Assembly (NCBI GenBank): GCA_964493715.1
Contig: CAZBPC010000048.1
Coordinates: 1-24,485 of the forward strand
Reading direction: 5' to 3'
Origin: an uncultured archaeon
Lineage (GTDB): Archaea; Asgardarchaeota; Lokiarchaeia; Sigyniarchaeales; SOKP01
Length of the DNA stretch: 24,485 bases
Of the stretch, positions 4,672-22,085 are shown piece after piece (position 1 is the stretch's first letter; each line of letters opens with the position of its first letter). The notes under the pieces were generated by a model. The model searched no databases, was not told the DNA's origin, and saw nothing but the letters and a program-made list of their open reading frames with translations. The position numbers and the translations under genes are program-made.

Positions 4672-4683
4672 TCTCTTCTAATT

Positions 4684-6958: not shown

Positions 6959-7097
6959 TATTAATTATTTGAGGAATATTAAATCCTACGAAATTTGATT
7001 TCATCAATTTTAATGAACTCAATTGAAAAGAAAGATTTAGTATGAAATTCTTCTTTATTGTAAATATCTCAGTAGTAAATAGGTAAAGATATCATAA

Positions 7098-7697: not shown

Positions 7698-7721
7698 TAA
7701 TTCTAATTTTTAAAGAAAATA

Positions 7722-7886: not shown

Positions 7887-8110
7887 ATCCAACTGACAAA
7901 AGTCATTTTATTTAATAAGAAGAAATATCGTGATAATACATTTTGAAATAAAAGAAAAGCATTATTCACCCCTAATAAAGAGGTAAAATGGCATAATAAA
8001 TTGACAATTTAAAAAGCAAATCTATAAAAACCATTATTCAGTAAAGAACTTAATAATTAATTGATGTTCTAAATAAATAATATATAATCAATCAAAATAG
8101 GAGAAATAAA

Positions 8111-8440: not shown

Positions 8441-8470
8441 ACAAATATCAATTCTTTTTTTGTTTTCTTA

Positions 8471-9340: not shown

Positions 9341-9414
9341 GTGTGTCCTCTCTTTCTTATTAATTAAATCAAGTCCACTGAATAAATAAATTTAAGTTAT
9401 TTAAATACATAATT

Positions 9415-10011
9415 ATGTCAATGCATTCGAATGAAAAAGATACTAAAAGCCTTACTGAACTCCTTTCAAAATTACAAACTCTATATCATCAGAAAAAGGA
9501 GCAACTAGAAGTGCTCCACCTAGAAATTGAAGAGTTACGTTCAATACTTTCTAGCTTAAATACATTAATTTCTACAAAATCTTTTTTAAGTGCTGACCAG
9601 CTTTATTCGGAAAAAAAAAAAACTTCTGATGACTATTTCAAGGAAGACATCCCCAATGAAGAATTCAAGGGAACAAATATTAAGAGAAAGATATTTTCAG
9701 AAGATAAGAATGAAGAAGAACACCTAATCTGTATACTTAATTTTTATGATTATAAAAAAGTTAGCATTAAATTTATCGATCCCGAAATTCGGGCTATTGG
9801 TGAAACTAATGAAAATTTTATGAATATTTTTTTAAAGGGAGCATTGATAAAAATAAAGGAAACGACTCCAAATCTTAATATTAGTTATGATTTTTATAAG
9901 AATACGAAGTATATAGAATACATTGTTATTAACAATCTTACATCAATTAAAGATTATGATTTAATTACCGAAAAAATTCGAGAAGTATTAACATACCAAA
10001 TGGATAAATAA
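9415..10011 (+). CDS. Hypothetical protein with N-terminal coiled coil
   Basis: 198-aa ORF with heptad Leu repeats at residues ~13-52, then SFLSADQL and a predicted alpha/beta domain. Confidence 0.7.
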   Translation: MSMHSNEKDTKSLTELLSKLQTLYHQKKEQLEVLHLEIEELRSILSSLNTLISTKSFLSADQLYSEKKKTSDDYFKEDIPNEEFKGTNIKRKIFSEDKNEEEHLICILNFYDYKKVSIKFIDPEIRAIGETNENFMNIFLKGALIKIKETTPNLNISYDFYKNTKYIEYIVINNLTSIKDYDLITEKIREVLTYQMDK

Positions 10012-10108
10012 AATAAAATACAAAAAATTAATTATTCAAAATTTTTATTATATTTATTATTATAAGGGAAGTGCAACAAAATTGGCGAAGAAAAAGAAAT
10101 GGCTAATA

Positions 10109-10891
10109 ATGCCAATAGTCCATTCAAAATTTAATGATAAAGAGCTCGAAGATGCTCTTAATGATAAATCAAGAGAATTATTGACAAAAGAACAAGAAGT
10201 CGTACCGTCCTTTATATTTCTTTCAGGAAGTTTTTTTGACATTAAAGGTTTTGCATACACGGGATTAAGAGCTTGGAAAGGTGCCGTGAAACCATCTAGA
10301 ACAGATGAAGGAAGAAGACCTCTGTTAGAAGCTACTTTTGCTTCACTTTCTGTATATTTGAGTTCATTATTAGCACTCCAATCAGATTTTTATTTTGCAT
10401 TTGACGAAATTAAAGAGATATTATTAAATTCAAAACGCGAAGATCTATGGACAATAGTAGCTGAGAAATTACCTTTTGTTTCTTTACCTCCTAAGGAAAT
10501 GTATGGAAATCAGATTTCTCCAATATCCCCATATTTCGTAATAAAACAAGATGAGGACCTTATTTTAGGAGAAATTTATCCATCGGCTTATTTATCTAAA
10601 GTAATTGAATCCATCAAGACAAGATTTTTTGTTTTTTACCAATATCAAGGATATTCTGCCTTTGGCTTTTTTGATTCTTTACCAGATTTATCAAATTTCG
10701 GTTTTGAGCAACAACCAAGGGAATTTAATGAAGAACCTACTCCTCAAAATCTTATAAAATACGCAAGCAAAGCAAAGAATTTAAAAGAAGTTTTAATCGC
10801 ACTCATACATGCTCATAACAACGCATTCCTAGAACAGTTTTTAGTTACTGATTATGAATTATTATTAAATAAGTTATTGGAGGGTGACTGA
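10109..10891 (+). CDS. Hypothetical protein, possible longin/roadblock-like GTPase partner
   Basis: Long ORF (ATG 10109, or TTG 10082). Its TGA overlaps the GTPase ATG (TGATG). The fold guess is inference only. Confidence 0.7.
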   Translation: MPIVHSKFNDKELEDALNDKSRELLTKEQEVVPSFIFLSGSFFDIKGFAYTGLRAWKGAVKPSRTDEGRRPLLEATFASLSVYLSSLLALQSDFYFAFDEIKEILLNSKREDLWTIVAEKLPFVSLPPKEMYGNQISPISPYFVIKQDEDLILGEIYPSAYLSKVIESIKTRFFVFYQYQGYSAFGFFDSLPDLSNFGFEQQPREFNEEPTPQNLIKYASKAKNLKEVLIALIHAHNNAFLEQFLVTDYELLLNKLLEGD

Positions 10892-11526
10892 TGACGAATA
10901 TCGGTTTATTGGGGGATGTTTCAGTAGGAAAAACTTCAATATTACGTCTCTTTGTTAGATATCTTAATAAAGGAGAGATTGAAAATGTAGAAGGAGGACT
11001 GAAATGCAGTATTTTGAAGACAGATTTTAGTGGTGAAGCTACTCTTCCAGGAGGGGAACAATCTGATGCTTTGAATGAAAAAGAAACAAAAACTATTCAT
11101 CCCAATAGGGTAGTTTTTCGAGAAGAGGAAAATGGTAAAGCTCATACGATATTTGCACCAGGAGGCGATAGAAAGCGCGCGGTAGTAAAAATGGGCATTA
11201 TTACCATTTCAAGAATAGCGACTAAAATAATTGCAGTTTTCTCAGCTGAACGAGAATTAGATCCGCAATTTGATTTCTTCAATGATGTTAGGTTTTTTCC
11301 CGATAATATCTTTGTATGCATTAATAAGATTGATTTGCTGGAAGGTGATAAGGAAGCAAAAGTGGAGGAAATCAAATCAAAGATCACGACTTTTTTCAAG
11401 CAACGAAAAATTAATGTAAAAGATTATTTTATCACGTGTGGAGAAACTGTTGATAATTTTGAAGATGTTGAAAAATATAACGATCATGTCGCTTCCATGA
11501 TCTTAAAAATTACTACAACAAATTAA
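10891..11526 (+). CDS. Ras-superfamily small GTPase with atypical G3
   Basis: G1 GDVSVGKTS, G2 Thr (KTIHP), G3 position IFAPGG, G4 NKID, G5-like TCGE. GGAGGG upstream. Confidence 0.85.
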   Translation: MTNIGLLGDVSVGKTSILRLFVRYLNKGEIENVEGGLKCSILKTDFSGEATLPGGEQSDALNEKETKTIHPNRVVFREEENGKAHTIFAPGGDRKRAVVKMGIITISRIATKIIAVFSAERELDPQFDFFNDVRFFPDNIFVCINKIDLLEGDKEAKVEEIKSKITTFFKQRKINVKDYFITCGETVDNFEDVEKYNDHVASMILKITTTN

Positions 11527-11540
11527 CTCTTTTTACTTAA

Positions 11541-12074
11541 TTAATTAATTTTTGAATCCATTTCACTTTTCTTTAAATATAAGTTCAAAATCAATTGATT
11601 TAGGTCTAATTGATAACCAATAAGAGGTGTTAGTCTAATCTCGTTATTATCATAGTCTATTAGTAAATACCCTTTTTTGGACAATTCCTTTAAATCCTCT
11701 GAAAGGTTTTTCTTCTTTCTTAATTTTATGATTTCTTGAATTTGGGTGTATCCGCTATTTTTTAAACAACAGGCTAGGGTGCAAAATAAAGTGGCTGCTA
11801 AACTTGGGTGACCTTCAAATGGATTTGTTTTAAACATATCTGAAATTTCAGAATTAATTGATAAGTACCAATAAGAGTTTAGAGGATTAAAGTTTATATG
11901 ATATCCTAATGGTTTTATATAATTAGATAAATCTATGATTAATTTTTTTAGACATACATGTTTATTTTTCCCTTTAATGTTCAAATATCTGAGAAGCTCA
12001 TCTTCTGTTGCTCCAAATTCATAAAGACTCACTCGTCTGCCTAATAGATGCATTAATATTGATATCTCATTCAT
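11541..12074 (-). CDS. KITE-type SMC accessory subunit (ScpB/Nse1/Nse3-like tandem winged helix)
   Basis: Last gene of the SMC operon. Two WH-like halves: LSNYIKPLGYHI..WYL and LAATLF...EIIKLR...LKELSKKGYL...RLTP. Confidence 0.65.
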   Translation of the reverse strand: MNEISILMHLLGRRVSLYEFGATEDELLRYLNIKGKNKHVCLKKLIIDLSNYIKPLGYHINFNPLNSYWYLSINSEISDMFKTNPFEGHPSLAATLFCTLACCLKNSGYTQIQEIIKLRKKKNLSEDLKELSKKGYLLIDYDNNEIRLTPLIGYQLDLNQLILNLYLKKSEMDSKIN

Positions 12075-12083
12075 TTTTATATT

Positions 12084-12734
12084 TCACTCATATATTATAG
12101 TTGTTGTTTTTTGATACTTGAGTAATCCTATTTGGAGAAGATGTAGAATATAAACGAAAAATTCGTAGACTTCTATTTGATCTTGGATCCCATCAAAAAG
12201 CTCATCAAATTTACATGGTAATTTATTTTTTATGCTGCTATAAAAATCCATCATTTTTTCAGTGAACTTTTGTCGAGGAATCTCCAATAAGAATGAGCCT
12301 CCTATCTGTTCTTTTTTAACATGCTCAATCTTTTCTGTAAATGGGTGATCTTTACTGAAACGTTGGTTGCTCCAAAACATAAATTCAGGTGAAATTGATT
12401 CTAGATGAAATACTTTCCTCCAACAATTTCCTAAAATTTGTTCTATTTCAACATCACTAGGTTTAGATTTCAAGAATTGCATAAAAATTTCATCGTTATC
12501 AAGATGATTTAACAAATTCTTTAGTTCCTCAAATTTTTGAGAAAGTAAGATACAAGCTTTCTCATATGTTTGAGAATAGTTGAAGATATTGTAAATGTTA
12601 AGAGATTCTTTTAATTGTTTGAAAATTGGATTTAATTCCAGTTCTAGTAATGATATCTTACCAGTAACTACATCTTCTTTGATTGTATCAATATATCTTG
12701 TTAACTCTTGTGAAATATCCTCATATCCCATCAT
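12084..12734 (-). CDS. Kleisin (ScpA/Nse4-like)
   Basis: Starts 3 bp after smc. Helical N-domain plus a C-terminal WH motif FDELF...EVYEFFVYILHLLQIG resembling the ScpA 'F.eL...vv..FlalLeL...g' pattern. Confidence 0.7.
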   Translation of the reverse strand: MMGYEDISQELTRYIDTIKEDVVTGKISLLELELNPIFKQLKESLNIYNIFNYSQTYEKACILLSQKFEELKNLLNHLDNDEIFMQFLKSKPSDVEIEQILGNCWRKVFHLESISPEFMFWSNQRFSKDHPFTEKIEHVKKEQIGGSFLLEIPRQKFTEKMMDFYSSIKNKLPCKFDELFDGIQDQIEVYEFFVYILHLLQIGLLKYQKTTTIIYE

Positions 12735-12737
12735 ACT

Positions 12738-15700
12738 TCAATCCGTCATTATAATTTTTGGATGAAAAATTGTTGATAATTCCTTATTACCCACTCTTGC
12801 AACTCCGATTATTTTGTCTGCTAAGGAGAATAATGCATTCGAGGATTTAGGAAGAAACATCATTAATTGGATTGGTAAGTTCTCAAGAGTGGACTTTATC
12901 ATCTCATACGATATCTCTACGTTTTTGTCATCTAAAAACATTGCTGCTTCATCAAACAAGCATAAAGGAGATGGTTTAATTTCTTGTAATGAAAGCATTA
13001 GGCAAATTGAGACCATTGAGATCTGTCCTCCACTTAGTGCAGTGCATGACTTTAATTGATCTTTTGAAACTGCAGCCTTAATTATAATTCCCAAATCCTC
13101 AAAATTACCATTTAATTCCAACGAACAATATGACTTTATACCCGTAGTTTTAAATTTATTATTAATTTTTGATTCTAAATCACTCAACATTCCTTTAAAC
13201 TTAGTATAATAAGTGTTCTCCATTCCATCTTCTGTTTTAATTGCTGCTTTGATATCTTTCTCTAATGAATTCTGATTTGTATTAATTTCTTTTAAACTTG
13301 ATAATAAACGTTCTTTTTCAATAAGTAAAGATTTGTCCACATCAGCATACTTCATCAATTCTTTCTGGGTGTTATATATATCCTCTTTAATTTTCTCGAT
13401 AGGTCTAAGTTCAATTTGCTTTTCCAGTATCGAAGGTTGGATCTCTGAATTAATCCTCTCTATTTCTAACTTTTTTGCATTATATTCTTGATTTATCTCT
13501 TGTAATCGAAAATTTTCTTGACCCAAATTTAGTTTTAAACGATTTTGATCATTTTGTCTATCATCTATTTCTGTGCTATTCCTTCTTTTATCCTCATTTA
13601 ATTGTTGCTCTTCGGAATTGCTAATAATTATTTGTTCTTTTATGGATTCTAAATTCTTGAACATATTAAAAGAATTTTTATCTGATTTCTCAAAATCCTC
13701 ATTCCTTTTAGAATATCTTTCTTTAAGATCTGAGATGAAACTATTAATGGATAGTGCTTTAGATTTCAAATCATTTAGATTGTTGTTTTTTTCTTCTTGA
13801 ATTATATCTAACTTATTCAATTTTTCATTATACTCCTTAAGAATGAGAGGAATCTCTTTAATTCTATCATTCCATTCAATAAACTCTGGTTCTATTTGAG
13901 ATTCTAAAATTTTAATTTGCTTACTTATTTTTTTAATATTTTCCGCAAATATAGATTTTTGATGTTCACATTCATATATCATCTCATAAAATCGATTTCT
14001 TTTCTGATTTAATCGTTCTTGTTGATTAAAATTATAAATTAGATCATTGAAAAGCTCCTTTTTTTCATATAAGTCTCGCTGGATTTTTTCTCGACTTAAT
14101 AGAAAGGATTTTTTATTTGAAATATATTTATTTACGGTTTCAATTTCCTCACTAATAACATCTATCTGTTCCTTTAAAGTGATTGTACTTAAAAATCCTT
14201 TTAATCTTTTTATGAAGGGAGTTTCATAAGTGTATTTATAAGAAACGATTTGTTCTCCCTTGAGAGTTACGCATTTACCTTTAAAACCTGAATTCTCATA
14301 TATACTCTTACTATTACTATATTCCTGAATGACAATACAATTACCTATTTTTGAATAAATTACTTTCTTAATATCTAAATCATCATCTGCAATATTTATT
14401 AGATCTGCAAGATACCCTATAACCCCAGGAGCAATGAATTTTCTTAAAGGAGTAATGACTGCCTCTTTTGATAGGTAAATATTGCAATAAGCATTTAATC
14501 TCTTCTTTAATTGTTTTAGAGTGTTTAGAGTCTCCCAATTATCAGCTACAAAACTAAATAATAATCTCTCTCCTAAAACAGATTCGATAGCATAACTAAG
14601 ATCATCATCATATTTTAAAAATTCAATAATGGGTCCTTTAACTTTTAAATTGTGCTTCTCAATTTCTTCTTTTAATAAAATTATGTTCATTGGAAGAATT
14701 ATTTTACGTTTTTCTAATGATTCTTTCAAAGTACTAAATTTCTTCAGTAACTTTGATTTTTCATATTCATTTTTTTTCAAAATTGACTCAATTTCGAAAA
14801 TTTCCTGAGATAATTTATTAAGATCTTTGTCCAATTTTCTAATTAAATCTTGAGAAGGGTTTTCCACGAACCAGGGGTTACTTTGAAATTTATTTTCTAT
14901 GTCTTGGAGACTTAGGAGAATATCATTTATGTCATGATTAAGATCGTCAATTTCTTTATCTTTTATTTCAATTTTTCTAATATAATCCTTTTGTTCATCT
15001 AAAAGCTTTTCATGCTCTTGGAAAAATATTTCATTTTCTTTAATTTTTACTGTTAAATCATTTTGTTCCGCTATTAATTGGTTTATGTTTTTCGTGATCA
15101 GATTTTTTTCTTTTTTAAGTTTCGTAATATCGTCCTGAATGTTCTTTTCTTGTTGTGTATAACTTTTAGAATCGTGCTCATTTTTCAGAATCTCTTTTTT
15201 TAAAGAGTCCAATTCTGATTTCCTTGTGAGCTTTTCACTCTTCCATATTTCTATTTTTTTTAATATGTCTTTCTTTTTATAATTCAATTCTCCAATTAGT
15301 TTCAAATTATCGTTTAATTGAAATTCAAGTTGTAGTATTATATTTCGTTTCTGCTCAATAATCTTTTTATTTAAATCAACTTTATTATTTAATTCCTTAA
15401 CTCGTGAGTTTATTTCATTTAACTTAGTCTCCAAATTCCCAATGATTTTTAATAAATTTTCCCGATTAGCCCATAAGAGCTCATCATCATATTGTTTTTT
15501 TAAGGTCAATAATGAGTTTTTAATCTCTAATCGTTTTAATTTAGGAAATAATGAATCCAAATTGAAATTTAGCGCATTCTTTCTGCTTTTGAGTGCAAGA
15601 AAATCATTATTCAAGCCCATTAATTTTTGTTTTTGAGCTAAAATTTCCAATCTTAATCCTTTTAGCCCAATTCCTTCTTCCAAGAAAGAGCATAACTCTT

Positions 15701-16163
15701 TTGGTTTTAAATTTTTAATAATATCGATTTTCCCTTGGCTAACAAATGCGAAATGATTATCCGGATTAATATTCAATTGAGATATGAATTCTTGAATATC
15801 TATAGCGGAAATTTTTTTAAATGAATCATCACCATCTTTTTGAATTTCGAAATATGGAGATTTACCTCTAATTACAATCCTTCGAAGTTTGATTAATTCA
15901 TCTTTAAAATGTAAATGGATCTCTACCATAGCATGATTTTGGCCATTATGAATGAAATCATACCATTTTTTATACCGATCATCTCTTTCATTACTTCCCA
16001 AAACAAATTTGATAGCCTGGAATATAGAAGTCTTACCGGACCAATTTGGACCAATTATTAGAATTAAGCGTGGATCAACTTCTTTGGTATCTCCTGAAAA
16101 TTCTACTTCATCCTTTTGAAAAGAGAGGAAATTCTCTAAGATAATTTTCTTAATATAAACCAT
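12738..16163 (-). CDS. smc: SMC-family ATPase, Smc5/6-like
   Basis: LENFLSF, Walker A GPNWSGKTS, Q-loop FVSQG, long coiled coils flanking a hinge (GPII...AIESVLG...VTLKGE), signature LSGGQ, Walker B LFDEAAMFLD. Confidence 0.92.
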   Translation of the reverse strand: MVYIKKIILENFLSFQKDEVEFSGDTKEVDPRLILIIGPNWSGKTSIFQAIKFVLGSNERDDRYKKWYDFIHNGQNHAMVEIHLHFKDELIKLRRIVIRGKSPYFEIQKDGDDSFKKISAIDIQEFISQLNINPDNHFAFVSQGKIDIIKNLKPKELCSFLEEGIGLKGLRLEILAQKQKLMGLNNDFLALKSRKNALNFNLDSLFPKLKRLEIKNSLLTLKKQYDDELLWANRENLLKIIGNLETKLNEINSRVKELNNKVDLNKKIIEQKRNIILQLEFQLNDNLKLIGELNYKKKDILKKIEIWKSEKLTRKSELDSLKKEILKNEHDSKSYTQQEKNIQDDITKLKKEKNLITKNINQLIAEQNDLTVKIKENEIFFQEHEKLLDEQKDYIRKIEIKDKEIDDLNHDINDILLSLQDIENKFQSNPWFVENPSQDLIRKLDKDLNKLSQEIFEIESILKKNEYEKSKLLKKFSTLKESLEKRKIILPMNIILLKEEIEKHNLKVKGPIIEFLKYDDDLSYAIESVLGERLLFSFVADNWETLNTLKQLKKRLNAYCNIYLSKEAVITPLRKFIAPGVIGYLADLINIADDDLDIKKVIYSKIGNCIVIQEYSNSKSIYENSGFKGKCVTLKGEQIVSYKYTYETPFIKRLKGFLSTITLKEQIDVISEEIETVNKYISNKKSFLLSREKIQRDLYEKKELFNDLIYNFNQQERLNQKRNRFYEMIYECEHQKSIFAENIKKISKQIKILESQIEPEFIEWNDRIKEIPLILKEYNEKLNKLDIIQEEKNNNLNDLKSKALSINSFISDLKERYSKRNEDFEKSDKNSFNMFKNLESIKEQIIISNSEEQQLNEDKRRNSTEIDDRQNDQNRLKLNLGQENFRLQEINQEYNAKKLEIERINSEIQPSILEKQIELRPIEKIKEDIYNTQKELMKYADVDKSLLIEKERLLSSLKEINTNQNSLEKDIKAAIKTEDGMENTYYTKFKGMLSDLESKINNKFKTTGIKSYCSLELNGNFEDLGIIIKAAVSKDQLKSCTALSGGQISMVSICLMLSLQEIKPSPLCLFDEAAMFLDDKNVEISYEMIKSTLENLPIQLMMFLPKSSNALFSLADKIIGVARVGNKELSTIFHPKIIMTD

Positions 16164-16220: not shown

Positions 16221-17423
16221 TCATTTTCCAAAGGCTTGCTTAATTTGTTCAATTTTTTTTTTTGCTTTCTCTAAATTTATTTGAGCTTTTTGAGGATTAT
16301 CATTTAAAATGAACGGATACATCGATAATAATTTTAAATCGTTTTCTTCGAGAATTTCTTTTTTATTTAATTTATCTAATATGATCAATAGTTCAGTATA
16401 TCTTTCGGAAGCAGCATTTTCGTAAAATTGATTTAACATAAAATCTGAGATATTTTGATTTTGAATATTAGAAATGATGTTTTTCTGTAATTCTTCGGGA
16501 TCTTTTATCTCATATTTTTGGTTTTTCAAGCCATTTTCAGGATTTATTTGATTATTAATGGAAAAAGAGGGAATATATTCTCCGGATTCGATTAAATCTT
16601 TCAATAGAGGAGTAATTTCATTTGAAATGTCATTAAGTTCTGAGTTTAAATAATGTTTGAAAATTGCTATCTTGATCAAATGAGTTATGTCTCTAATTTC
16701 CCATTTTTTTGTTAAATCTACCATAGTTTTGATGTCAAAAACAATTTTTGGGTACTTTTCAGAAATATTAGAGAAAATTATTTCTCGATCTTCCTGATTT
16801 AATCGATGAATTTTAATAAATATATCAAAAAATTGAAATACTTCTTGAGAATTTTCATTAATTTCATCAACATTATAATTTATCCAAAACAGTAAAGCTT
16901 GTTGATCAATAAAACTATAATCAGAAGATTTTTTTAAGAAATAGTTCAGAAAAAACTTTAAAAAGCTTTTACTTTGTGAATCAAATTCTATTAGTTGCTC
17001 TACTAGCAATATTCGTTTTATTTTATAGACTTCATCGTATTTCTCTGAAACTTCCCCTGTGGCTTCATTGCTTCTCAAGATCTCTTCTATTATTAAATTA
17101 AAATTGGTAAAAAAATCTTGTGGGGTTTCCAAGAGCTTATCAATGTTAAATTGAACAAGATTTAGATTATAGTTTGCAGAGATAAATTTAAAAAAATCGA
17201 GTATATCCGTACCTTTATTGATATGCAACAATAAAGCCCCTTTTGGATGAGAATACTGCTTTATTAACTCGTCATCATCTTTTACTAGTAAAACTCTTAA
17301 ATAATTAACAATCTCGTTATATTTTTCCCTAAAATATATTTGATCTCTATTGATGTTAATTTCAGATGAGGAAATAATTTTATAGTATTTCGAAAAGCTC
17401 ATTTCCTCTCGTGCATCGTTCAT
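16221..17423 (-). CDS. Degenerate, probably inactive, AAA+ ATPase-like protein
   Basis: EIVNYL...PKGALLLHINKGTD at the Walker A position, ILLVEQ at Walker B, and FDIFIKIHRLNQEDREIIF...DIKTMVDLTKKWEIRDI resembling the classical AAA lid region. Confidence 0.65.
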   Translation of the reverse strand: MNDAREEMSFSKYYKIISSSEININRDQIYFREKYNEIVNYLRVLLVKDDDELIKQYSHPKGALLLHINKGTDILDFFKFISANYNLNLVQFNIDKLLETPQDFFTNFNLIIEEILRSNEATGEVSEKYDEVYKIKRILLVEQLIEFDSQSKSFLKFFLNYFLKKSSDYSFIDQQALLFWINYNVDEINENSQEVFQFFDIFIKIHRLNQEDREIIFSNISEKYPKIVFDIKTMVDLTKKWEIRDITHLIKIAIFKHYLNSELNDISNEITPLLKDLIESGEYIPSFSINNQINPENGLKNQKYEIKDPEELQKNIISNIQNQNISDFMLNQFYENAASERYTELLIILDKLNKKEILEENDLKLLSMYPFILNDNPQKAQINLEKAKKKIEQIKQAFGK

Positions 17424-17609: not shown

Positions 17610-17625
17610 ATCAAATGATCTTGAT
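17610..17625. promoter_or_regulatory. Possible ArsR-type box ATCAA-N6-TTGAT
   Basis: Perfect 5-6-5 palindrome at the arsR 3' end, with the same geometry as the 18106 palindrome. Confidence 0.3.
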
Positions 17626-18026
17626 CATCTCAGGATGGAATCATTAAGAGTTTCTAATTGAATGTTTAGATTTTCTTTTATAAGATGATAATAAGTAAAA
17701 TTTCCCTTTTTATAACCCTCAATTAAACCAGAACTAACGAGTTTTCTTATATGATGAGAAATTGTTGATTGAGACTTATCTAAAACAGCTTCTAGTTCAC
17801 ATACACATCTATCTCTATTTCTTAATAAATGGAGTATTATGAGCCGTTCTTTTGAAGCTAAAGCCATAGTAAAAAGTGGTAATTTATCAAAATTTTTATT
17901 ATTATCTAAATCTAATTTTATTTTCCGTAATTCTTCAAAATAAGAATTTGTTTCATCGCATTCCTTACAAGAACATAGCATGCTTTTAATTTCCTTAACT
18001 CTTTGAGGTTTAATATTAATCACCAA
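17625..18026 (-). CDS. arsR: ArsR/SmtB-family metalloregulator
   Basis: ALASKERLIILHLL, CVCEL metal-binding box, HTH SQSTISHHIRKL...GLI, wing KKGNFTYY. Extra N-terminal CSCKEC. Divergent from acr3. Confidence 0.92.
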   Translation of the reverse strand: MVINIKPQRVKEIKSMLCSCKECDETNSYFEELRKIKLDLDNNKNFDKLPLFTMALASKERLIILHLLRNRDRCVCELEAVLDKSQSTISHHIRKLVSSGLIEGYKKGNFTYYHLIKENLNIQLETLNDSILR

Positions 18027-18105
18027 TTATTATCAACATAATCACAATTATTTAAATACATCGATAAATATAAATGTAAGGTATTTCTAACTTCATATAC
18101 ACCCA

Positions 18106-18123
18106 AATCGATATCTTTCGATT
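18106..18123. promoter_or_regulatory. Putative ArsR operator AATCGA-N6-TCGATT
   Basis: Perfect 6-6-6 inverted repeat between divergent arsR and acr3. A weaker copy, TACATCGA-N6-TAAATGTA, lies at 18057-18078. Confidence 0.6.
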
Positions 18124-18160
18124 AACTTTAAAAACGATCAATAATTTAAAAAGTTTGATA

Positions 18161-19219
18161 ATGAGTGATGACGAAAAAAAAATTGGTTATTTTGAAAAAC
18201 TGTTGCCACTTTGGGTGGCAATATGTATAGTAATTGGGATTGCGTTATCTCAATTGGTACCTCAGATAAGTTTGGCAATAGATTCACTTAAAATTGGACA
18301 AATCTCTATTCCAATAGGGATTTGCCTATTTCTAATGATGTACCCTGCAATGTTAAATCTGAAAGGATCTGAATTAAAAAAATTGGGTAAAAATCCTAAA
18401 CCAATTATTCTGACTCTAATTTCAAATTGGTTAGTTGCTCCATTTGTGGGTTTAGCCATGGTAAAACTTTTTTTACAGGGAAATGAACAATTGTCAGTAG
18501 CAGTCATATTATTATCAAGCTCACCATGCACTGCTATGGTACTTGTATGGGGTTGGATGGCCAAAGGGAATCAAGAACAAAATGTATTAAATACGAGTTT
18601 AAATACCGTAACAATTATTTTCTTATATGTAGGCATGGTTTCATTGCTTACAGGATTGCAGAATATACCAATTGATGTGATGCTGTTAATAATATCACTG
18701 ATCATTTTTATTGGGATTCCCTTATTGTTAGGAATCATTACAAAGAAAGTCATTGTATTATCTAAAGGAGATGAATGGTTTAACAATACTTATCGTCCCT
18801 TTGTTGGGAAAATTTCGATTGGTGCATTATTAGTTACACTAATCGTGCTTTTTTCATTAAATGGAAATGTTTTGATTCATAACCCCGATTTGTTATTATT
18901 GGTTTCAATTCCCTTACTCCTAGGATTTGTCATTGTTGTAGGATATAATGTATTCATTACTAAAATCTTTAAAATGAGATATAAGGAAGCTATAATCACG
19001 GTAATTATCGGATCTTCTAGTCATTTTGAGATTGCAATTGCAACCGCTATCGCGATGTATGGAATAGGCTCCATAGCGGCTTTAGGTACAACAATGGGGC
19101 TGTTTTGGGAAGTGCCTGTAATGCTTTCGATTGTTTATTTAGGGAGGTATTTAGAAAAGCGCGGATTTTGGAAATCAGAAGAAAAGAATTCAAATTTATT
19201 GAATTTTGAGGTACAGTAA
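18161..19219 (+). CDS. acr3: Acr3 arsenite efflux transporter
   Basis: PIGICLFLMMYP, NWLVAP, SPCTAMVLVW, SSHFEIAIATA, WEVPVML; about 10 TM helices. ATG 18161 (alternative TTG 18155). Confidence 0.93.
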   Translation: MSDDEKKIGYFEKLLPLWVAICIVIGIALSQLVPQISLAIDSLKIGQISIPIGICLFLMMYPAMLNLKGSELKKLGKNPKPIILTLISNWLVAPFVGLAMVKLFLQGNEQLSVAVILLSSSPCTAMVLVWGWMAKGNQEQNVLNTSLNTVTIIFLYVGMVSLLTGLQNIPIDVMLLIISLIIFIGIPLLLGIITKKVIVLSKGDEWFNNTYRPFVGKISIGALLVTLIVLFSLNGNVLIHNPDLLLLVSIPLLLGFVIVVGYNVFITKIFKMRYKEAIITVIIGSSSHFEIAIATAIAMYGIGSIAALGTTMGLFWEVPVMLSIVYLGRYLEKRGFWKSEEKNSNLLNFEVQ

Positions 19220-19220
19220 A

Positions 19221-20879
19221 GTGGCAGTCACATATATGCGAAAATTGGAAGAAGAACCTGAAACATATGATTCGAATTTCACCACATTAACCAATGGGAT
19301 AAATCTTGAAGTTCATAATTGGGTACTAAATCACCTCAAAGAAAGTAAAACGATTTTAGAAGTAGGATGCGGAACTGGTATTCTCGCTTCGAAAATGGTC
19401 AAAAATGGTAGAAGTGTGGTTGCTATTGATAAAAATTTTCAGATGATTAATCAAGCAATGATGAATTACCCTTCTAATATCGATGGAACGCTTCTCTATC
19501 AAATAGGATCATTTAAAGATTTACCCGTTCCACCAAATTCTCAAGATGTTATTGTTAGTACTTTCATGTTATCTGAACTTCGACCATTTGAACAGCAAAT
19601 TTTCTTACGTAATTCTTGGTCGGTACTAAAACCAGAAGGTAGATTATTGATAGGTGCTGAGTTCGTTCCATCTGGTTTATGGAAATTAGGTTTTAAATTG
19701 AAAAGATGGAGATTTAAAAAAAAATTAAGAAGACTTCGTTTAGATAATACTTATCTCGTTAAATGGTTCATGAAATATCTAACACCAATTGGATTCAAGA
19801 TAATTGAGAGTAAAAAATGGAAACATGGATCCATTCAAGCATTGGAATTAATAAAAACCAATGAAGATAATCTCGATGAGCCAGGGTATTACATTCCATC
19901 CTCAAAAAAATTTAGTGGGATTGGATCTCAATTCAGAATTTTTAGATGTACTCTAACTGGTCAAGCCGATAGAGTTCCTATTGAGCCGGGGATTTATCGA
20001 TCGGGAAACCCAACGAAAAATTCTCCAATTATAGTCACTTCAAATTATGATTTTACATACATCAAGGTGATGAGAAATTTGCGCCATATCGATGCCTGGG
20101 TTCTATGTGTGGATAGTAATGGCATTAATGTGTGGTGTGCGGCGAGGGGTAATGATTTTGGCAATGAACAAATCCTAGAAGCGGTGGAAGCGACAGGAAT
20201 CCAAAATTTTACAGAACAAAAAACTTTAATTCTCCCTCAACTATCCGCAGGTGGAGTTTCAATACCACAATTACCAAAAAAATCTGAAAAATTTCCTTTT
20301 AAAATTAAATTTGGACCAGTATGGTCTAAACACCTACCACAATACCTTAAAGAAAAACCTAATAAAAAACCAGATTACATGAAATTAGCTAAATTCAGTT
20401 TATCTCATAGAATGAGAGCATGGGTCACGCATACAACATTTTTATTAAGAAAGATATTTTTACTGCCAATCATTGGGTTCTTCATTATTTTTTTATTAAG
20501 CCTACCATGGATAAACAAGCTTACTTGGGTTGCGGAATTAATATCATGGATCATTATATCTAATGCTTTAATAGCAATCTTATTTCCTCTCTCAAGTTTC
20601 ACGAGGAGTTTCATAAAGAAAGGAATGATTTTTGGGTTTCTCACATCATTAGTTCTTGGAGGAATATCATGGTTATTGCATGGCTCGCTCATATTCATTT
20701 TATTGAATGTGATTTTATTCTTTTGGATCGCATTTTTTTCTACGATGTCGTTTAGCGGATATACCATGGCAACCAGTCCAAGAGAAATTCAGGAAGAATA
20801 TTCAAGTTTTAAGAAAATAAATAAATTTTTACTAATTATAGGTATCATTTTATCAATAATTGGAATTATAATCTATTAA
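19221..20879 (+). CDS. Class I SAM methyltransferase fused to an HgcA-like corrinoid domain and C-terminal TM helices
   Basis: N-terminal ILEVGCGTG, VVAIDKN, DVIVSTF, LKPEGRL. Middle IEPGIYRSGNP..SPIIVTSNY, DSNGINVWCAARG, LILPQLSAGGV, FGPV. C-terminal 4-5 TM helices with FSGYT. Likely GTG start at 19221 after GAGGT; the ORF track gives TTG 19206. Confidence 0.88.
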   Translation: MAVTYMRKLEEEPETYDSNFTTLTNGINLEVHNWVLNHLKESKTILEVGCGTGILASKMVKNGRSVVAIDKNFQMINQAMMNYPSNIDGTLLYQIGSFKDLPVPPNSQDVIVSTFMLSELRPFEQQIFLRNSWSVLKPEGRLLIGAEFVPSGLWKLGFKLKRWRFKKKLRRLRLDNTYLVKWFMKYLTPIGFKIIESKKWKHGSIQALELIKTNEDNLDEPGYYIPSSKKFSGIGSQFRIFRCTLTGQADRVPIEPGIYRSGNPTKNSPIIVTSNYDFTYIKVMRNLRHIDAWVLCVDSNGINVWCAARGNDFGNEQILEAVEATGIQNFTEQKTLILPQLSAGGVSIPQLPKKSEKFPFKIKFGPVWSKHLPQYLKEKPNKKPDYMKLAKFSLSHRMRAWVTHTTFLLRKIFLLPIIGFFIIFLLSLPWINKLTWVAELISWIIISNALIAILFPLSSFTRSFIKKGMIFGFLTSLVLGGISWLLHGSLIFILLNVILFFWIAFFSTMSFSGYTMATSPREIQEEYSSFKKINKFLLIIGIILSIIGIIIY

Positions 20880-20940
20880 AAAAACCATAAAAAAATAAAA
20901 ATAAATAATAAATAAAGATAATAAAATAAAGGTGAAATTA

Positions 20941-21261
20941 ATGACAGAATTAAAAAGTGATTCCTGTTGCAGTCCATCAACAAGCCTAACACAATTACCT
21001 AACATCAGAATACTTATTGATCAAAAATTATGTACTGGTTGTGGACTATGTGGAGAAGTATGCCCATTTGGACTCCCTCAACCCATAGAAAATGGGAAAT
21101 ATATAATTTCAGATGTCAATTTATGTACCGAGTGTAGTGCTTGTAAAAGAAATTGCCCAGTTCAAGCCATATCAATGTATGAACAAAAAGGTTGTGGGTG
21201 TTTATGGGATGCAAGGCAGCGAATTAAGAACAAGGGTTCAACGAACTCTTGCTGTAATTAA
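20941..21261 (+). CDS. HgcB-like 2x[4Fe-4S] ferredoxin
   Basis: CTGCGLCGEVCP and CTECSACKRNCP, then GCGC and a C-terminal SCCN; directly downstream of the HgcA-like gene. ATG 20941 (alternative GTG 20932). Confidence 0.85.
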   Translation: MTELKSDSCCSPSTSLTQLPNIRILIDQKLCTGCGLCGEVCPFGLPQPIENGKYIISDVNLCTECSACKRNCPVQAISMYEQKGCGCLWDARQRIKNKGSTNSCCN

Positions 21262-21290: not shown

Positions 21291-21707
21291 ATGAATGAAA
21301 AAAGCATAAATGATGAAATAAAGGTAGTTAAGGATTCTTGTGGATGTGGGTGTACATGTTCTGAAGCTGAAGTAGAAGAATCAAAGGATGAGAAAGTTTC
21401 AAAATTAGAAGAATTAGAGAATTCAAATGAGAAATTCAATGATTCAAGTAAGTTATATATCGATATTTACGTACCCTTGGATGCGTGCGCATGTGAATGG
21501 TCTCAATTCATGAACTTAATGTTCTCAGCAATTACACCATATATTAAATATATCAAACATGAAACAAAATCACTAAACACTGAGGAAGCCCGTCGGATGA
21601 ACTTGTTCACAAAATGTGCAATCGTGGACGACAAGAAAAAATATACGACATCTGCTGCCTTAAAAAGGGATCTACCAAGACTTTTAGAAGAAAAGGGTTT
21701 AATGTAA
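21291..21707 (+). CDS. Cys-rich protein with possible thioredoxin/ArsD-like fold
   Basis: N-terminal CGCGCTC, acidic linker, then strand-loop IDIYVPLDACACEW and a beta/alpha pattern. GAGGA upstream. Confidence 0.65.
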   Translation: MNEKSINDEIKVVKDSCGCGCTCSEAEVEESKDEKVSKLEELENSNEKFNDSSKLYIDIYVPLDACACEWSQFMNLMFSAITPYIKYIKHETKSLNTEEARRMNLFTKCAIVDDKKKYTTSAALKRDLPRLLEEKGLM

Positions 21708-21719: not shown

Positions 21720-22085
21720 TTGTTGGATATGAAAACGATTAAATTTGATATAAGTATTCCAATACAAGGGCTACAAAAGGGGAAAAAATTTACTGTCATT
21801 GTGGATGATGATGCAACGATAATACAAGCATTAGCCATGGTGGATAAACAAGATCAAGAGAATCCAAATGAATCCATTTTTCCGATATATGATGGATACA
21901 TACATAATTATCTTCAAATGTTCGTGAATTTAGAGGATGGATATATCTATAATGACGTTGGAATCTATGCTTATGGTCCCGATGAAAATGAGATCATGCG
22001 AAAATTTAACCCAATTCGAGAAAACATAGATTTTAATCTATATCCCGATAGTTTAATTCAATTACAACCAGATGTTGGGTGCTGA
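21720..22085 (+). CDS. Hypothetical protein, possible beta-grasp/Ubl-like fold ending in Gly-Cys
   Basis: KFTVIVDDDATIIQAL...NLYPDSLIQLQPDVGC* follows the MoaD/ThiS layout but ends GC, not GG. Start TTG 21720 or ATG 21729. Confidence 0.6.
   Translation: MLDMKTIKFDISIPIQGLQKGKKFTVIVDDDATIIQALAMVDKQDQENPNESIFPIYDGYIHNYLQMFVNLEDGYIYNDVGIYAYGPDENEIMRKFNPIRENIDFNLYPDSLIQLQPDVGC

What the first reader, a model, noticed from the sequence alone, without database searches (positions are those of the whole stretch)
19221..20879. SAM-methyltransferase fused N-terminally to an HgcA-like protein
Seen: a ~210-aa class I MTase (GCGTG motif I) in the same ORF as a full HgcA-like corrinoid domain and TM anchor. 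Canonical HgcA has no such domain. The MTase lacks the ArsM As-binding cysteines (STFMLSEL where ArsM has SNCVINL). Its start, YMRKLEEEPETYD, recalls the stand-alone corrinoid-protein-associated MTases (CpaM-like; from memory, unverified). Inference: a Rosetta-stone fusion in which the MTase moves methyl from SAM to cob(I)alamin, either catalytically or for reactivation, pointing to the methyl-loading partner of HgcA-like proteins.
Basis: partly seen in the sequence, partly recalled or inferred. Interest (0 to 1): 0.85.

Follow-up and report, generated by a model that had tools for sequence, protein, structure and literature searches.

The report
Methyltransferase-fused HgcA relative in arsenic operon
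This Asgard archaeon has a real, widely conserved gene that joins a SAM methyltransferase to a membrane-bound vitamin-B12 protein related to (but distinct from) the mercury-methylating enzyme HgcA, and it sits with its ferredoxin partner in the genome's only arsenite-pump operon, so it probably methylates an arsenic-like element, though nobody has tested this.

Summary
Window 19221-20879 (+) is one open frame of 552 aa. It has a class I SAM methyltransferase domain, an HgcA-like corrinoid domain with the cap-helix Cys (NVWCAARG), and five transmembrane helices.

It is neither an artefact nor unique. All 120 best database homologs carry both domains. Full-length copies occur across Asgard archaea, and fused forms also occur in Bacteria.

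The N-domain is a diverged CpaM: 128.6 bits against a cut-off of 180, and profile-profile E 4.7e-45 against stand-alone CpaMs.

The HgcA part lies on the "HgcAB-like" side of the family tree, not among true HgcA. None of 59 true HgcA representatives carries the domain. The same genome also holds an unfused CpaM + HgcAB-like pair.

The partner ferredoxin keeps the HgcB-type Cys (about 12 residues after cluster 2) and the C-terminal Cys pair. The operon is arsR (CVC motif) - acr3 - fusion - hgcB-like.

Best reading: methyl passes from SAM to Co(I), forming Cys-ligated methyl-Co(III), and then to a thiophilic metal(loid), arsenic being most likely here. This chemistry is inferred, not shown.

Novelty is moderate. 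NCBI already catalogues the CpaM/HgcAB-like pair, SAM is already the published donor for true HgcAB (2024), and this scan has met the same fusion in other genomes.

The parts
17625..18026 (-). ArsR/SmtB-family metalloregulator, divergent from the operon. It carries C-V-C (RCVCELE) in the DNA-binding helix region and an N-terminal LCSCKEC.
   Evidence: Pfam HTH_5 E 1.1e-15. NCBIfam NF033788 71.5 bits, above the cut-off of 55. The CVC motif is seen in 23 of the 24 fusion loci that have an ArsR hit.
18155..19219 (+). ACR3-family arsenite efflux permease. It is the only acr3 found in the genome, and its stop lies 1 nt before the fusion's GTG start.
   Evidence: TIGR00832 270 bits against a cut-off of 282.8, covering 2-325 of 327. 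Single match in the genome. Junction sequence.
19221..20879 (+). The 552-aa fusion protein: CpaM-like SAM methyltransferase, HgcA-like corrinoid-binding domain and five-helix transmembrane domain.
   Evidence: AlphaFold2 mean pLDDT 91.7, pTM 0.86.
19221..19865 (+). Class I (Rossmann) SAM methyltransferase domain, aa 1-215. It has N-terminal helices with invariant M6, L9, E10, Y16; motif I G49/G51/G53 (19359-19379); D70; and an S118-E119-L120 signature.
   Evidence: hhalign against stand-alone CpaM: probability 100, E 4.7e-45 over 210 columns. Nearest solved folds are PmtA, Coq5, UbiG and other class I methyltransferases.
19956..20399 (+). HgcA-like corrinoid-binding domain, aa about 246-393. 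The cap helix NVWCAARG is at 20127-20150 and the invariant Cys306 codon at 20136-20138.
   Evidence: PF03599. Best PDB sequence match is CFeSP gamma 2h9a, E 2.4e-08. Best fold match is the deposited HgcAB model 9a0b_A, E 9.9e-13. Cap-helix counts.
20433..20876 (+). Transmembrane domain with five long helices (model helices 394-426, 430-458, 464-487, 490-514, 520-551).
   Evidence: Hydropathy. DSSP on the model.
20932..21261 (+). HgcB-like 2x[4Fe-4S] ferredoxin. It has a GCGC starting 12 residues after the CP of the second cluster motif and a C-terminal SCCN. The likely start is the ATG at 20941.
   Evidence: NF040864 52.9 bits against a cut-off of 99. In 42 separate partners: 42 have two cluster motifs, 42 have GC[GR]C, and 38 have >=2 Cys in the last 10 aa. 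Offset measured.
21291..21707 (+). Conserved Cys-rich small protein (CGCGCTC; DACAC). It has no family; a thioredoxin-like fold is only a weak lead.
   Evidence: No Pfam or NCBIfam hit. Atlas lead scores 0.86. Found downstream of hgcB-like mostly in acr3-bearing loci.
21720..22085 (+). Conserved small protein of unknown family, the last gene of the compact operon.
   Evidence: No family. Syntenic in related loci.

Best explanation
The gene encodes a self-charging corrinoid methyltransferase.

Proposed mechanism:
1. The N-terminal CpaM-type domain binds SAM and passes its methyl to Co(I) of a cobalamin held in the HgcA-like domain. This gives methyl-Co(III) with the cap-helix Cys306 as axial ligand.
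2. The adjacent HgcB-like ferredoxin supplies low-potential electrons to make or regenerate Co(I).
3. The ferredoxin's extra cysteines (the GCGC after cluster 2 and the C-terminal Cys pair) present a thiophilic metal(loid), which receives the methyl at the membrane.

In this genome the system is the second and third gene of an arsR(CVC)-acr3 operon, so arsenite (or antimonite) is the most likely substrate or inducer.

Shown: the domain architecture, its conservation, the obligatory M-A-B linkage, the clade placement, the operon context, and a predicted interdomain interface.

Inferred: methyl transfer from SAM to Co, the role of the Cys residues, and the identity of the substrate.
For: Architecture and purifying selection on both halves:
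- 39 invariant residues, including G49/G51/G53, E119, C306 and R397, in 44 sequences at about 30-100% identity.
- The pattern persists in the 54-sequence alignment A1.

Not an artefact:
- 1071 homologs at E<=1e-3. All of the 120 best are 521-578 aa and carry both Pfam domain types, on independent contigs.
- 201 of 398 Asgard genomes match at E<=1e-20, including 107 of 132 in the window's own family. This count includes weaker hits to the paralogous CpaM/HgcAB-like system.

The N-domain is a CpaM relative.

CpaM is always with an HgcA(B)-like protein:
- Of the 30 best CpaM loci, 22 are adjacent, 7 are fused and 1 is cut by a contig end.
- Triple fusions fall at two or more places in the tree.
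- Fused forms occur in Anaerolineae and Abyssubacteria too.

The ferredoxin is directly downstream on the same strand in 42 of 42 loci and fused in 2 more. It has HgcB-type Cys features in 42/42 and 38/42. These features are absent from all 21 HgcAB-like and triple-fusion tails examined.

Published precedent:
- HgcB Cys73 lies about 12 residues after cluster 2, and the C-terminal Cys pair is needed for Hg methylation (Cooper 2020, PMC7305189, passages; Zheng 2024, PMC11588087, introduction).
- SAM methylates Co(I) of true HgcAB with Cys thiolate ligation (Zheng 2024, abstract and discussion).

Structure:
- Complex prediction of the MT domain against the corrinoid domain scores 0.71, with the best of 3 controls at 0.45. 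That mark was reached by 116 of 157 solved complexes and 2 of 215 mismatched pairs. Contacts agree >=91% between runs and partner pLDDT is >=85.
- Interface residues include the conserved P122 and P256/G257/Y259.
- The whole-chain model has pTM 0.86.

Arsenic link:
- acr3 lies upstream on the same strand in 15 of 44 unique loci, and within <=79 nt in 13 of those 15.
- ArsR with CVC occurs in 23 loci, including distant families where it sits 42-60 nt from the fusion.
- This is the only acr3 in the genome, and no ArsM was found at E<=1e-15 in a genome rated 100% complete.
- True hgcAB is also flanked by ars genes (McDaniel 2020, PMC7438021, passages). In ND132 it is controlled by an ArsR that responds to arsenic and SAH (Gionfriddo 2022 preprint, abstract).
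- Methylcobalamin methylates As(III) chemically (review PMC6950371, passages).
Against: - No biochemistry exists for any member of this clade.
- True HgcAB uses SAM without a methyltransferase domain (Zheng 2024), so the domain may do something other than load cobalt.
- Its closest solved folds are lipid and quinone methyltransferases (PmtA, Coq5, UbiG), so a non-corrinoid methyl acceptor is not excluded.
- The domain scores below the CpaM cut-off.
- acr3 linkage is limited to 15 of 44 loci, all in the window's own order. Distant families have only ArsR or unrelated neighbours.
- No ArsP organoarsenical exporter was found in the genome.
- The FMN reductases next to some copies are not ArsH.
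- One complex control reached 0.45, and the confident contacts stop at residue 300, just before the cap helix at 303-310.
- I chose the loci for spread and contig length, not at random.
Confidence: 0.5

Rival explanations
1. It is a functional mercury methylase, an HgcAB variant with a built-in SAM domain. The ars context would reflect regulation only, as in some true hgcAB loci.
For: - The cap-helix Cys is invariant.
- The ferredoxin keeps the Cys73-equivalent and the C-terminal Cys pair that Hg methylation requires (Cooper 2020 passages).
- True hgcAB is also flanked by arsR and acr3 (McDaniel 2020 passages).
- Published surveys list Asgard archaea as putative methylators (PMC12484752 and PMC10083202, passages).
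Against: - It scores 175.7 against a cut-off of 275 on the HgcA model.
- It lies on the other side of a branch with 100% SH-aLRT support from all 59 true HgcA.
- The cap helix lacks the GK seen in true HgcA: K at position 8 in 55 of 59 true HgcA, against 0 of 26 window-type sequences.
- The only tested member of the sister clade (P. furiosus fused HgcAB) did not methylate Hg (cited in Lin 2023).
- No mer genes were seen in the window.
Confidence: 0.15
2. The methyltransferase domain serves only for reductive reactivation (as with SAM in methionine synthase). The catalytic methyl donor would be another compound, such as methyl-tetrahydrofolate or a methylated substrate.
For:
- A ferredoxin partner is present for Co(II) reduction.
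- One locus (L067) has MTHFR genes directly upstream.
Against: - No second methyltransferase or pterin-binding protein is conserved near the 44 loci.
- SAM is the catalytic donor in true HgcAB (Zheng 2024).
- The MT domain is fused or adjacent across the whole clade.
Confidence: 0.12
3. The target is not a metal(loid) but an organic or lipid molecule at the membrane. The methyltransferase might even act on that molecule directly, and the arsR-acr3 linkage would be incidental.
For: - The nearest solved folds are the membrane-peripheral lipid and quinone methyltransferases PmtA, Coq5 and UbiG.
- Stand-alone CpaM also hits the PmtA model at E 1.4e-15.
- Neighbours outside the acr3 subset are heterogeneous.
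- Earlier scan notes place some CpaM/HgcAB-like pairs in biosynthetic clusters (not checked here).
Against: - CVC-type ArsR regulators recur next to the fusion in distant families.
- The window-type ferredoxin keeps the metal-handling Cys motifs that HgcAB-like forms lack.
- The gene is translationally coupled to acr3.
Confidence: 0.15
4. The fusion is an assembly or gene-calling artefact.
For: None was found. The window comes from a metagenome-type assembly of 160 contigs.
Against: - The same single frame without stops occurs on very many independent contigs and in closed single-contig genomes.
- The linker region itself is conserved.
- The model is confident through the junction: the 10-residue pLDDT blocks covering residues 201-250 read 93, 80, 93, 94 and 83.
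Confidence: 0.01

Closest known systems
CpaM (NCBIfam NF043040, corrinoid protein-associated methyltransferase) together with the HgcAB-like fusion protein (NF043039), the 'fused HgcAB' paralogs of the mercury literature
   Same: - The same three modules: SAM methyltransferase, HgcA-like corrinoid and membrane domain, and 2x[4Fe-4S] ferredoxin.
- The same side of the family tree.
- Full-length homology of the MT domain.
- The same genome holds a textbook copy on contig C53, scoring 247.8 and 377.2 bits, both above cut-off.
- Function is untested in both.
   Different: - The fusion point differs: here M is fused to A and B is a separate gene.
- All three model scores are below the curated cut-offs.
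- The cap helix is NVWCAARG.
- The ferredoxin carries a GCGC and a C-terminal Cys pair, which are absent from all 21 HgcAB-like and triple-fusion tails examined.
- It sits in an arsR-acr3 operon.
HgcA/HgcB mercury methylation pair (NF040863/NF040864; Pseudodesulfovibrio mercurii ND132)
   Same: - A corrinoid domain with a cap-helix Cys, five transmembrane helices, and a separate HgcB-type ferredoxin with a Cys about 12 residues after cluster 2 and C-terminal cysteines.
- SAM as the likely methyl source.
- ArsR and ars-gene neighbourhoods.
   Different: - Not a member: it scores 175.7 against 275 and 52.9 against 99, and it is separated from true HgcA by a fully supported branch.
- The cap helix lacks GK.
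- It carries an N-terminal SAM methyltransferase domain that none of the 59 true HgcA representatives has.
- True HgcA was found in only 1 of 398 Asgard genomes.
ArsM / AS3MT arsenite S-adenosylmethionine methyltransferase
   Same: A class I SAM methyltransferase fold, found in an arsenic operon context.
   Different: - The ArsM model scores 40.4 bits against a cut-off of 263.
- There are no conserved cysteines in the MT domain apart from a non-invariant one inside motif I.
- The proposed route goes through cobalamin rather than directly to arsenic.
Corrinoid iron-sulfur protein (CFeSP, AcsC/CdhE) of the Wood-Ljungdahl pathway
   Same: Homologous corrinoid-binding domain. The best solved sequence match is 2h9a, E 2.4e-08.
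   Different: It is soluble, has no cap-helix Cys, takes its methyl from methyl-tetrahydrofolate through a TIM-barrel methyltransferase, and has no SAM domain.

Membership tests
HgcA (NF040863, mercury methylation corrinoid protein) | Score at or above the curated cut-off (275 bits) | tested here: not met
   175.7 bits. True members score 310-494 bits.
HgcA (NF040863, mercury methylation corrinoid protein) | Placement inside the HgcA clade | tested here: not met
   All 59 true HgcA rows are separated from the window's side by a branch with 100% SH-aLRT support (quick IQ-TREE search, no bootstrap).
HgcA (NF040863, mercury methylation corrinoid protein) | Cap helix NVWCA(A/G)GK with the axial Cys | tested here: inconclusive
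   The Cys is present and invariant. However, the motif is NVWCAARG. NVWCAAGK occurs in 50 of 59 true HgcA and in 0 of 26 window-type sequences.
HgcA (NF040863, mercury methylation corrinoid protein) | C-terminal five-helix membrane domain and an adjacent HgcB ferredoxin | tested here: met
   Five helices. An HgcB-like gene starts 52 nt downstream.
HgcA (NF040863, mercury methylation corrinoid protein) | Methylates Hg(II) | not testable with these tools
   This needs an assay.
HgcAB-like fusion protein (NF043039) | Score at or above the cut-off (285 bits), with the HgcB-like tail in the same chain | tested here: not met
   180.1 bits, covering profile positions 14-269 only. The ferredoxin is a separate gene.
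HgcAB-like fusion protein (NF043039) | Same clade as HgcAB-like proteins and partnered with CpaM | tested here: met
   It falls in the 53-row side holding all AB-like, M-A and M-A-B forms. A CpaM-type domain is fused to it.
CpaM (NF043040) | Score at or above the cut-off (180 bits) | tested here: not met
   128.6 bits and 131.7 bits.
CpaM (NF043040) | Full-length homology including the N-terminal Y-M-x-x-L-E-x-x-P-x-x-Y-D helices and the S-E-L signature | tested here: met
   Profile coverage 3-213 of 216. hhalign probability 100, E 4.7e-45 over 210 columns. M6, E10, Y16, the motif I glycines, D70, M75 and S-E-L are shared.
CpaM (NF043040) | Genomic association with an HgcA-family corrinoid protein | tested here: met
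   It is covalently fused here. In the 30 best CpaM loci, 22 are adjacent, 7 are fused and 1 is cut.
CpaM (NF043040) | Transfers methyl from SAM to the corrinoid | not testable with these tools
   No member has been characterised. No paper holds 'CpaM' together with 'corrinoid'.
ArsM | Model score and conserved As(III)-binding cysteines | tested here: not met
   40.4 bits against a cut-off of 263. There is no invariant Cys in the MT domain.

The most novel reading that the evidence does not exclude
Asgard archaea (and some Bacteria) may possess an ArsM-independent, cobalamin-dependent route for methylating arsenite or a related metalloid. SAM would charge a Cys-ligated corrinoid through a dedicated CpaM domain. 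The methyl would then pass to As(III) held by the HgcB-like cysteine tail at the membrane, co-expressed with the Acr3 pump. If so, metalloid methylation would be the native function of the whole HgcAB superfamily, and mercury methylation by true HgcAB would be a side branch of it.
Probability: 0.3. Interest if true: 0.85.

Novelty: new variant of a known kind. Interest (0 to 1): 0.55.

Why it matters
Why microbes carry HgcAB at all is a long-standing open question, and the function of the large 'fused HgcAB' sister clade is unknown.

This variant offers three things:
- It gives that clade an explicit SAM-binding module. [quoted passage not shown]
- It places the module in an arsenite sensor/pump operon in a genome where no ArsM was found. 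That yields a concrete, testable substrate hypothesis.
- It is a caution for surveys. True HgcA was found in only 1 of 398 Asgard genomes, while 201 matched the fusion query at E<=1e-20, a count that includes weaker hits to the paralogous CpaM/HgcAB-like system. Asgard 'putative mercury methylators' in metagenomic surveys may therefore mostly be these paralogs.

Two closed single-contig genomes in the same order also carry arsR-acr3-fusion-hgcB (L068, L070), so the question may be open to experiment.

Tried and rejected
- **Read laying:** Nothing was laid, so read-level coverage of the domain junction was not examined. Conservation across independent contigs replaces that check.
- **The look-up of sequencing runs:** 24 DNA runs hold all or part of the stretch. 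No RNA holder is listed, so nothing can be said about expression.
- **Structure prediction:** It was accepted.
- **Selenocysteine reading in a relative:** the two in-frame TGAs between CpaM and HgcAB-like are ordinary stops in the spacer.
- **ArsH hypothesis:** rejected for the FMN reductases directly upstream of the fusion in L053 and L061. There is no ArsH model hit; the best hits are weak WrbA/SsuE-type matches.
- **N-terminal extensions of long true HgcA representatives:** 9 such proteins, scanned together with 3 HgcAB-like/Fer4-bearing ones, have no methyltransferase domain; one has a GNAT domain.
- **ORF5 and ORF6:** no family in Pfam or NCBIfam even at loose thresholds. The Atlas gives only weak thioredoxin-like and ThiS-like leads.
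- **The search for related loci:** returned only 6 loci, so the genome search and the fetch from genomes were used instead.
- **Literature searches that found no description of the MT-HgcA fusion:**
  - 'CpaM' + 'corrinoid': 0 papers.
  - hgcA + methyltransferase + fusion + paralog: 2 papers listed, neither opened.
  - hgcA + Asgard.
  - 'HgcAB-like'.
  - hgcAB + fused + Pyrococcus furiosus + methyltransferase.
  - Lokiarchaeota + arsenic + acr3 + methyltransferase.
- **Lin et al. 2023:** they placed Asgard sequences in the fused-HgcAB clade after removing the first 327 alignment columns, and do not mention the domain (passages only).
- Supplements of these papers were not read and may list such sequences.
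Full report
**1. Observation**

Window 19206-20879 (+) is a single open frame. Three start codons are possible:
- TTG 19206, which overlaps the end of the upstream acr3 gene.
- GTG 19221, 1 nt after the acr3 stop (TAA 19217-19219) and 8 nt after a GAGGT.
- ATG 19236.

I number residues from it. Searches used the TTG start, which adds 5.

Domain hits:
- Pfam finds class I methyltransferase families (Methyltransf_11, E 3.2e-15) and PF03599 CdhD (E 3.3e-14).
- NCBIfam finds CpaM NF043040 at 128.6 bits (cut-off 180), covering 3-213 of 216 positions.
- NCBIfam also finds HgcAB-like NF043039 at 180.1 bits (cut-off 285) and HgcA NF040863 at 175.7 bits (cut-off 275).

An AlphaFold2 model built on 54 homologs is confident throughout: mean pLDDT 91.7, pTM 0.86, and no segment below 50. 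It shows:
- a seven-stranded methyltransferase with three N-terminal helices;
- a linker;
- a Rossmann-like corrinoid domain with a short cap helix at 304-309;
- five long membrane helices (394-551), in agreement with hydropathy.

Foldseek's best match is the deposited integrative model of HgcA in the HgcAB complex (9a0b_A, E 9.9e-13). Ordinary class I SAM methyltransferases follow, led by bacterial phosphatidylethanolamine N-methyltransferase, Coq5 and UbiG.

**2. Not an artefact, not unique**

A word-indexed search of 5.8 billion proteins gave 1071 homologs at E<=1e-3 among the 8000 candidates scored. All 120 listed are 521-578 aa, 63-91% identical, and carry both methyltransferase families and PF03599. 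Where named, they come from Loki-/Promethearchaeota, Hermod-, Hod-, Heimdall- and Odinarchaeota MAGs, annotated only as 'methyltransferase domain-containing protein'.

A six-frame scan of 398 genomes of the window's phylum found a match at E<=1e-20 in 201, including 107 of 132 in the window's own family. The 201 include weaker hits to the paralogous system described in section 4. By my reading of the table (not machine counted):
- about 100 listed matches at 42-100% identity cover essentially the whole query in one stop-free frame of 550-600 aa;
- about 35 more do so at 28-35% identity in other families.

In an alignment of 44 such proteins (the window plus 43 loci; L003 was dropped because it is the same contig as L056), 39 residues are invariant and spread over both halves:
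- Methyltransferase half: M6, L9, E10, Y16, G49, G51, G53, M75, S118, E119, G140.
- Corrinoid and membrane half: P256, G257, N275, Y276, the cap helix N303-V304-W305-C306, P339-Q340-L341, K383, R397, P456, G513.

D70 and D109 are kept in 42 of 44. The only invariant cysteine is C306.

Fused forms are not confined to Archaea. Cluster members are named from Anaerolineae and Candidatus Abyssubacteria. NCBI already names some 548-aa Hodarchaeales fusions 'corrinoid protein-associated methyltransferase CpaM'.

**3. Family placement**

I searched 1.84 billion cluster representatives with the HgcA-like part. This gave 946 hits at E<=1e-3. I then scanned 82 of the 150 listed, the longer ones, against NCBIfam:
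- 53 score above the HgcA cut-off.
- 13 score above the HgcAB-like cut-off.
- 15 carry an N-terminal CpaM match.
- 1 fits nothing.

Of the 15 with a CpaM match:
- 8 are window-type, with all scores below cut-off.
- 5 are M-A forms with CpaM above cut-off.
- 2 are triple M-A-B fusions above both cut-offs.

None of the 53 true HgcA carries a CpaM match at E<=1e-25. The same holds for 6 further true HgcA at E<=1e-10. Nine long true HgcA with N-terminal extensions, scanned with 3 HgcAB-like/Fer4-bearing proteins, have no methyltransferase domain there.

A maximum-likelihood tree of 112 HgcA-type domains (quick IQ-TREE search, LG+C20, SH-aLRT only) separates the 59 true HgcA from the other 53 rows by a branch with 100% support. 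The window sits in a fully supported clade of 15 M-A proteins from its own order. That clade is next to an M-A clade of another family (support 82). HgcAB-like proteins, triple fusions (at two or more places) and the remaining M-A forms make up the neighbouring clade (support 95).

Cap helices agree with this split. NVWCAAGK occurs in 50 of 59 true HgcA. NVWCAARG occurs in 19 of 26 window-type sequences and in 4 of 17 HgcAB-like proteins. None of the latter two groups has GK.

A profile of 35 fusion MT domains matches a profile of 23 stand-alone CpaMs with probability 100 and E 4.7e-45 over 210 columns. The match includes the N-terminal helices and the S-E-L signature.

The protein is therefore a diverged member of the CpaM/HgcAB-like system, not an HgcA.

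**4. The linkage of the three modules**

The window's own genome (3.68 Mb, 160 contigs, rated 100% complete) also has a textbook unfused copy on contig C53. It is a 219-aa CpaM (247.8 bits) followed 24 nt later by a 366-aa HgcAB-like fusion (377.2 bits).

Across the phylum, CpaM above cut-off occurs in 86 of 398 genomes. Open frames run about 220-250 aa (stand-alone), 551-555 aa (M-A), 597-611 aa and 645-672 aa (M-A-B). In the 30 best-scoring loci:
- the CpaM gene is followed directly, on the same strand, by an HgcA-type gene in 22;
- it is fused to one in 7;
- it is cut by the contig end in 1.

In one relative the two genes lie in the same frame, separated only by two stop codons.

For the window-type fusion, an HgcB-like ferredoxin gene follows on the same strand within about 114 nt in 42 of 42 unique loci. 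It is fused in frame in the 2 triple fusions.

This recurrent shuffling of fusion points among M, A and B is the strongest evidence that the three act together.

**5. The ferredoxin differs from the HgcAB-like tail and resembles true HgcB**

All 42 separate partners have two CxxCxxCxxxC motifs and a GC[GR]C followed by a hydrophobic residue. Of these, 38 have two or more Cys in the last ten residues, and 33 have an adjacent CC. The exceptions are one sequence cut by the locus end, one with the CC 12 residues from the end, and two with a single terminal Cys.

In the window the first of these cysteines lies 12 residues after the CP of the second cluster motif. Cooper et al. [quoted passage not shown] They also describe C-terminal cysteines needed for full activity (PMC7305189, passages). 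Zheng et al. 2024 list C93 of HgcA and C73/C94/C95 of HgcB as crucial (PMC11588087, introduction).

By contrast, all 21 HgcAB-like and triple-fusion proteins I examined end 8-46 residues after the last motif the pattern found. They have no GCGC and no terminal Cys pair.

The window type thus combines a CpaM-charged, HgcAB-like corrinoid protein with a ferredoxin that has kept the thiol 'hand' associated with soft-metal handling.

**6. Context**

The gene order is:
- arsR (17625-18026, minus strand);
- a 128-nt divergent intergenic region;
- acr3 (18155-19219);
- the fusion (19221-20879);
- hgcB-like (20932-21261);
- two small conserved genes without family (21291-21707, Cys-rich; 21720-22085).

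Gaps between the plus-strand genes are 1-52 nt. The acr3 is the only one in the genome. No ArsM was found at E<=1e-15, and no ArsP at E<=1e-5.

The ArsR has C-V-C in the DNA-binding helix region plus N-terminal cysteines. This is the arrangement of thiophilic metal(loid) sensors of the family (that attribution is from my own knowledge).

Among 44 unique loci (window included; I chose them for spread of identity and long contigs, not at random):
- acr3 lies upstream on the same strand in 15, all from the window's own order, and within 79 nt or less in 13 of those 15;
- an ArsR homolog is present in 24, and 23 of those have the CVC motif;
- these include four loci of a distant family where ArsR sits 42-60 nt from the fusion.

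Pfam on 121 neighbouring ORFs of 15 loci without acr3 showed no other common partner. The neighbours include FMN reductases, flavin reductases, an EamA transporter, MTHFR, glutaredoxin with ferredoxin-thioredoxin reductase, and B12-radical SAM enzymes. The FMN reductases are not ArsH.

**7. Mechanism**

Zheng et al. (2024) showed with purified ND132 HgcAB that SAM methylates Co(I), giving a Cys-ligated methyl-Co(III) that then methylates Hg. No separate methyltransferase is needed (abstract and discussion read). A search of that paper found 'methyltransferase domain', 'fusion' and 'fused' nowhere.

Gionfriddo et al. found that the ArsR upstream of ND132 hgcAB responds to arsenic and to S-adenosylhomocysteine (preprint abstract). 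McDaniel et al. noted acr3, arsC, arsM and arsR next to hgcAB in diverse methylators (passages). A review records that methylcobalamin methylates As(III) chemically in the presence of glutathione (passages).

Against this background the most economical reading is: SAM, then the CpaM domain, then Co(I)/methyl-Co(III) with Cys306 on cobalt, then a thiol-bound metal(loid). The ferredoxin would provide electrons and the substrate-carrying cysteines. In this operon arsenite is the likeliest substrate.

A complex prediction of the MT domain (1-232) against the corrinoid domain (240-395), with SAM riding along, reached 0.71 (runs 0.71, 0.72, 0.67). The best of three controls was 0.45, and the other two were 0.00. 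That mark was reached by 116 of 157 solved complexes and 2 of 215 mismatched pairs. The runs share at least 91% of contacts and the partner's pLDDT is at least 85. The tool notes that its counts hold only roughly here, because my own alignment and a ligand were used.

The confident contacts join MT residues 121-130 and 223-231 to corrinoid-domain residues 254-260, 297-300 and 320-329. The first MT stretch is the helix right after the invariant S-E-L. The corrinoid contacts involve conserved positions (P122; P256, G257, Y259). They end just before the cap helix rather than on it. This supports a fixed interdomain arrangement but does not show chemistry.

**8. What weighs against this**

- Nothing in this clade has been assayed.
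- True HgcAB manages without the domain.
- The nearest solved methyltransferases act on lipids and quinones.
- The acr3 link covers only a third of the sampled loci and only one order.
- No organoarsenical exporter was found.
- The one tested member of the sister clade did not methylate mercury (Podar 2015, as cited by Lin et al. 2023; passages).

I therefore hold the overall mechanism at about 0.5. Arsenic as the specific substrate stands at about 0.3.

**9. Novelty**

NCBI curators have already catalogued the module and its pairing (NF043040/NF043039). Many fused proteins are in public databases. The SAM-donor idea is published for true HgcAB.

Notes of this scan describe the same fusion in arsenic operons in six other genomes, and CpaM/HgcAB-like cassettes elsewhere. 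I read these after forming my own reading, and they agree with it.

I found no paper describing the methyltransferase fusion, its spread in Asgard archaea or its ars-operon setting. Lin et al. 2023 placed Asgard sequences in the fused-HgcAB clade after trimming the first 327 alignment columns.

One practical point follows. True HgcA was found in only 1 of 398 Asgard genomes, so 'Asgard mercury methylators' in surveys may largely be these paralogs.

Verdict: this is a real, conserved variant of a known but uncharacterised kind, of moderate interest.

Noticed in passing
L007 (own genome contig C53:17446-21090), ORFs 1498-2157 and 2182-3282: The same genome has a second, unfused paralogous system: stand-alone CpaM (247.8 bits) followed by an HgcAB-like fusion (377.2 bits; cap helix NVWCGACG). 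A DtxR/MntR-looking regulator (my impression from its sequence; no family scan was run on it) lies upstream, and a small Cys-containing thioredoxin-like ORF lies downstream. Both systems also coexist in many related genomes.
   Followed up: partly
L089, L090 and L108, L115-L118, L121, L122: Single-chain triple fusions (methyltransferase, HgcA-like and ferredoxin) of 597-652 aa. One search lists further frames of 645-672 aa in two other families. In the tree the triple fusions fall at two or more separate places among HgcAB-like proteins.
   Followed up: partly
window 21291-21707 and 21720-22085: Two small conserved genes end the operon. The first is Cys-rich (CGCGCTC, DACAC) with only a weak thioredoxin-like lead. 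The second has no family. They travel mainly with the acr3-bearing loci. In L067 a copy of the first sits beside an ArsR gene, away from the fusion.
   Followed up: partly
phylum scan, (G395:C110:1082-2017): Only 1 of 398 Asgard genomes, one with 9% contamination, has an HgcA above the curated cut-off. Most 'Asgard hgcA' may therefore be CpaM-linked paralogs.
   Followed up: partly
window 18050-18075 and 18106-18127: Imperfect palindromes built around ATCGAT/TCGAT lie in the 128-nt arsR-acr3 intergenic region. They are candidate ArsR operators, but such repeats are common in DNA this AT-rich.
   Followed up: no
window 16221-17423 (-): A 400-aa protein with no Pfam family is conserved (40-56% identity) next to arsR in many related loci. 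It is probably plain synteny.
   Followed up: no
L124 (G261:C14:25800-28600), 560-2356: In a congeneric genome CpaM and the HgcAB-like gene lie in the same reading frame, separated only by a short spacer with two TGA stops. This is a plausible starting point for fusion.
   Followed up: yes
L054:5280-5675; L053:7719-8285; L061:7896-8480; L060: Variations at the acr3 position. L054 has an extra methyltransferase-like ORF between acr3 and the fusion. L053 and L061 have a flavodoxin-like FMN reductase (not ArsH) in place of acr3. L060 has a 3.7-kb insertion splitting acr3 from the fusion.
   Followed up: partly
window 191-16163: The rest of the window holds housekeeping genes: a GH130 phosphorylase with a wHTH tail, a thymidylate synthase-like protein, Maf, a RimK-type ATP-grasp enzyme and an SMC protein. 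Several ORFs have no Pfam family.
   Followed up: partly
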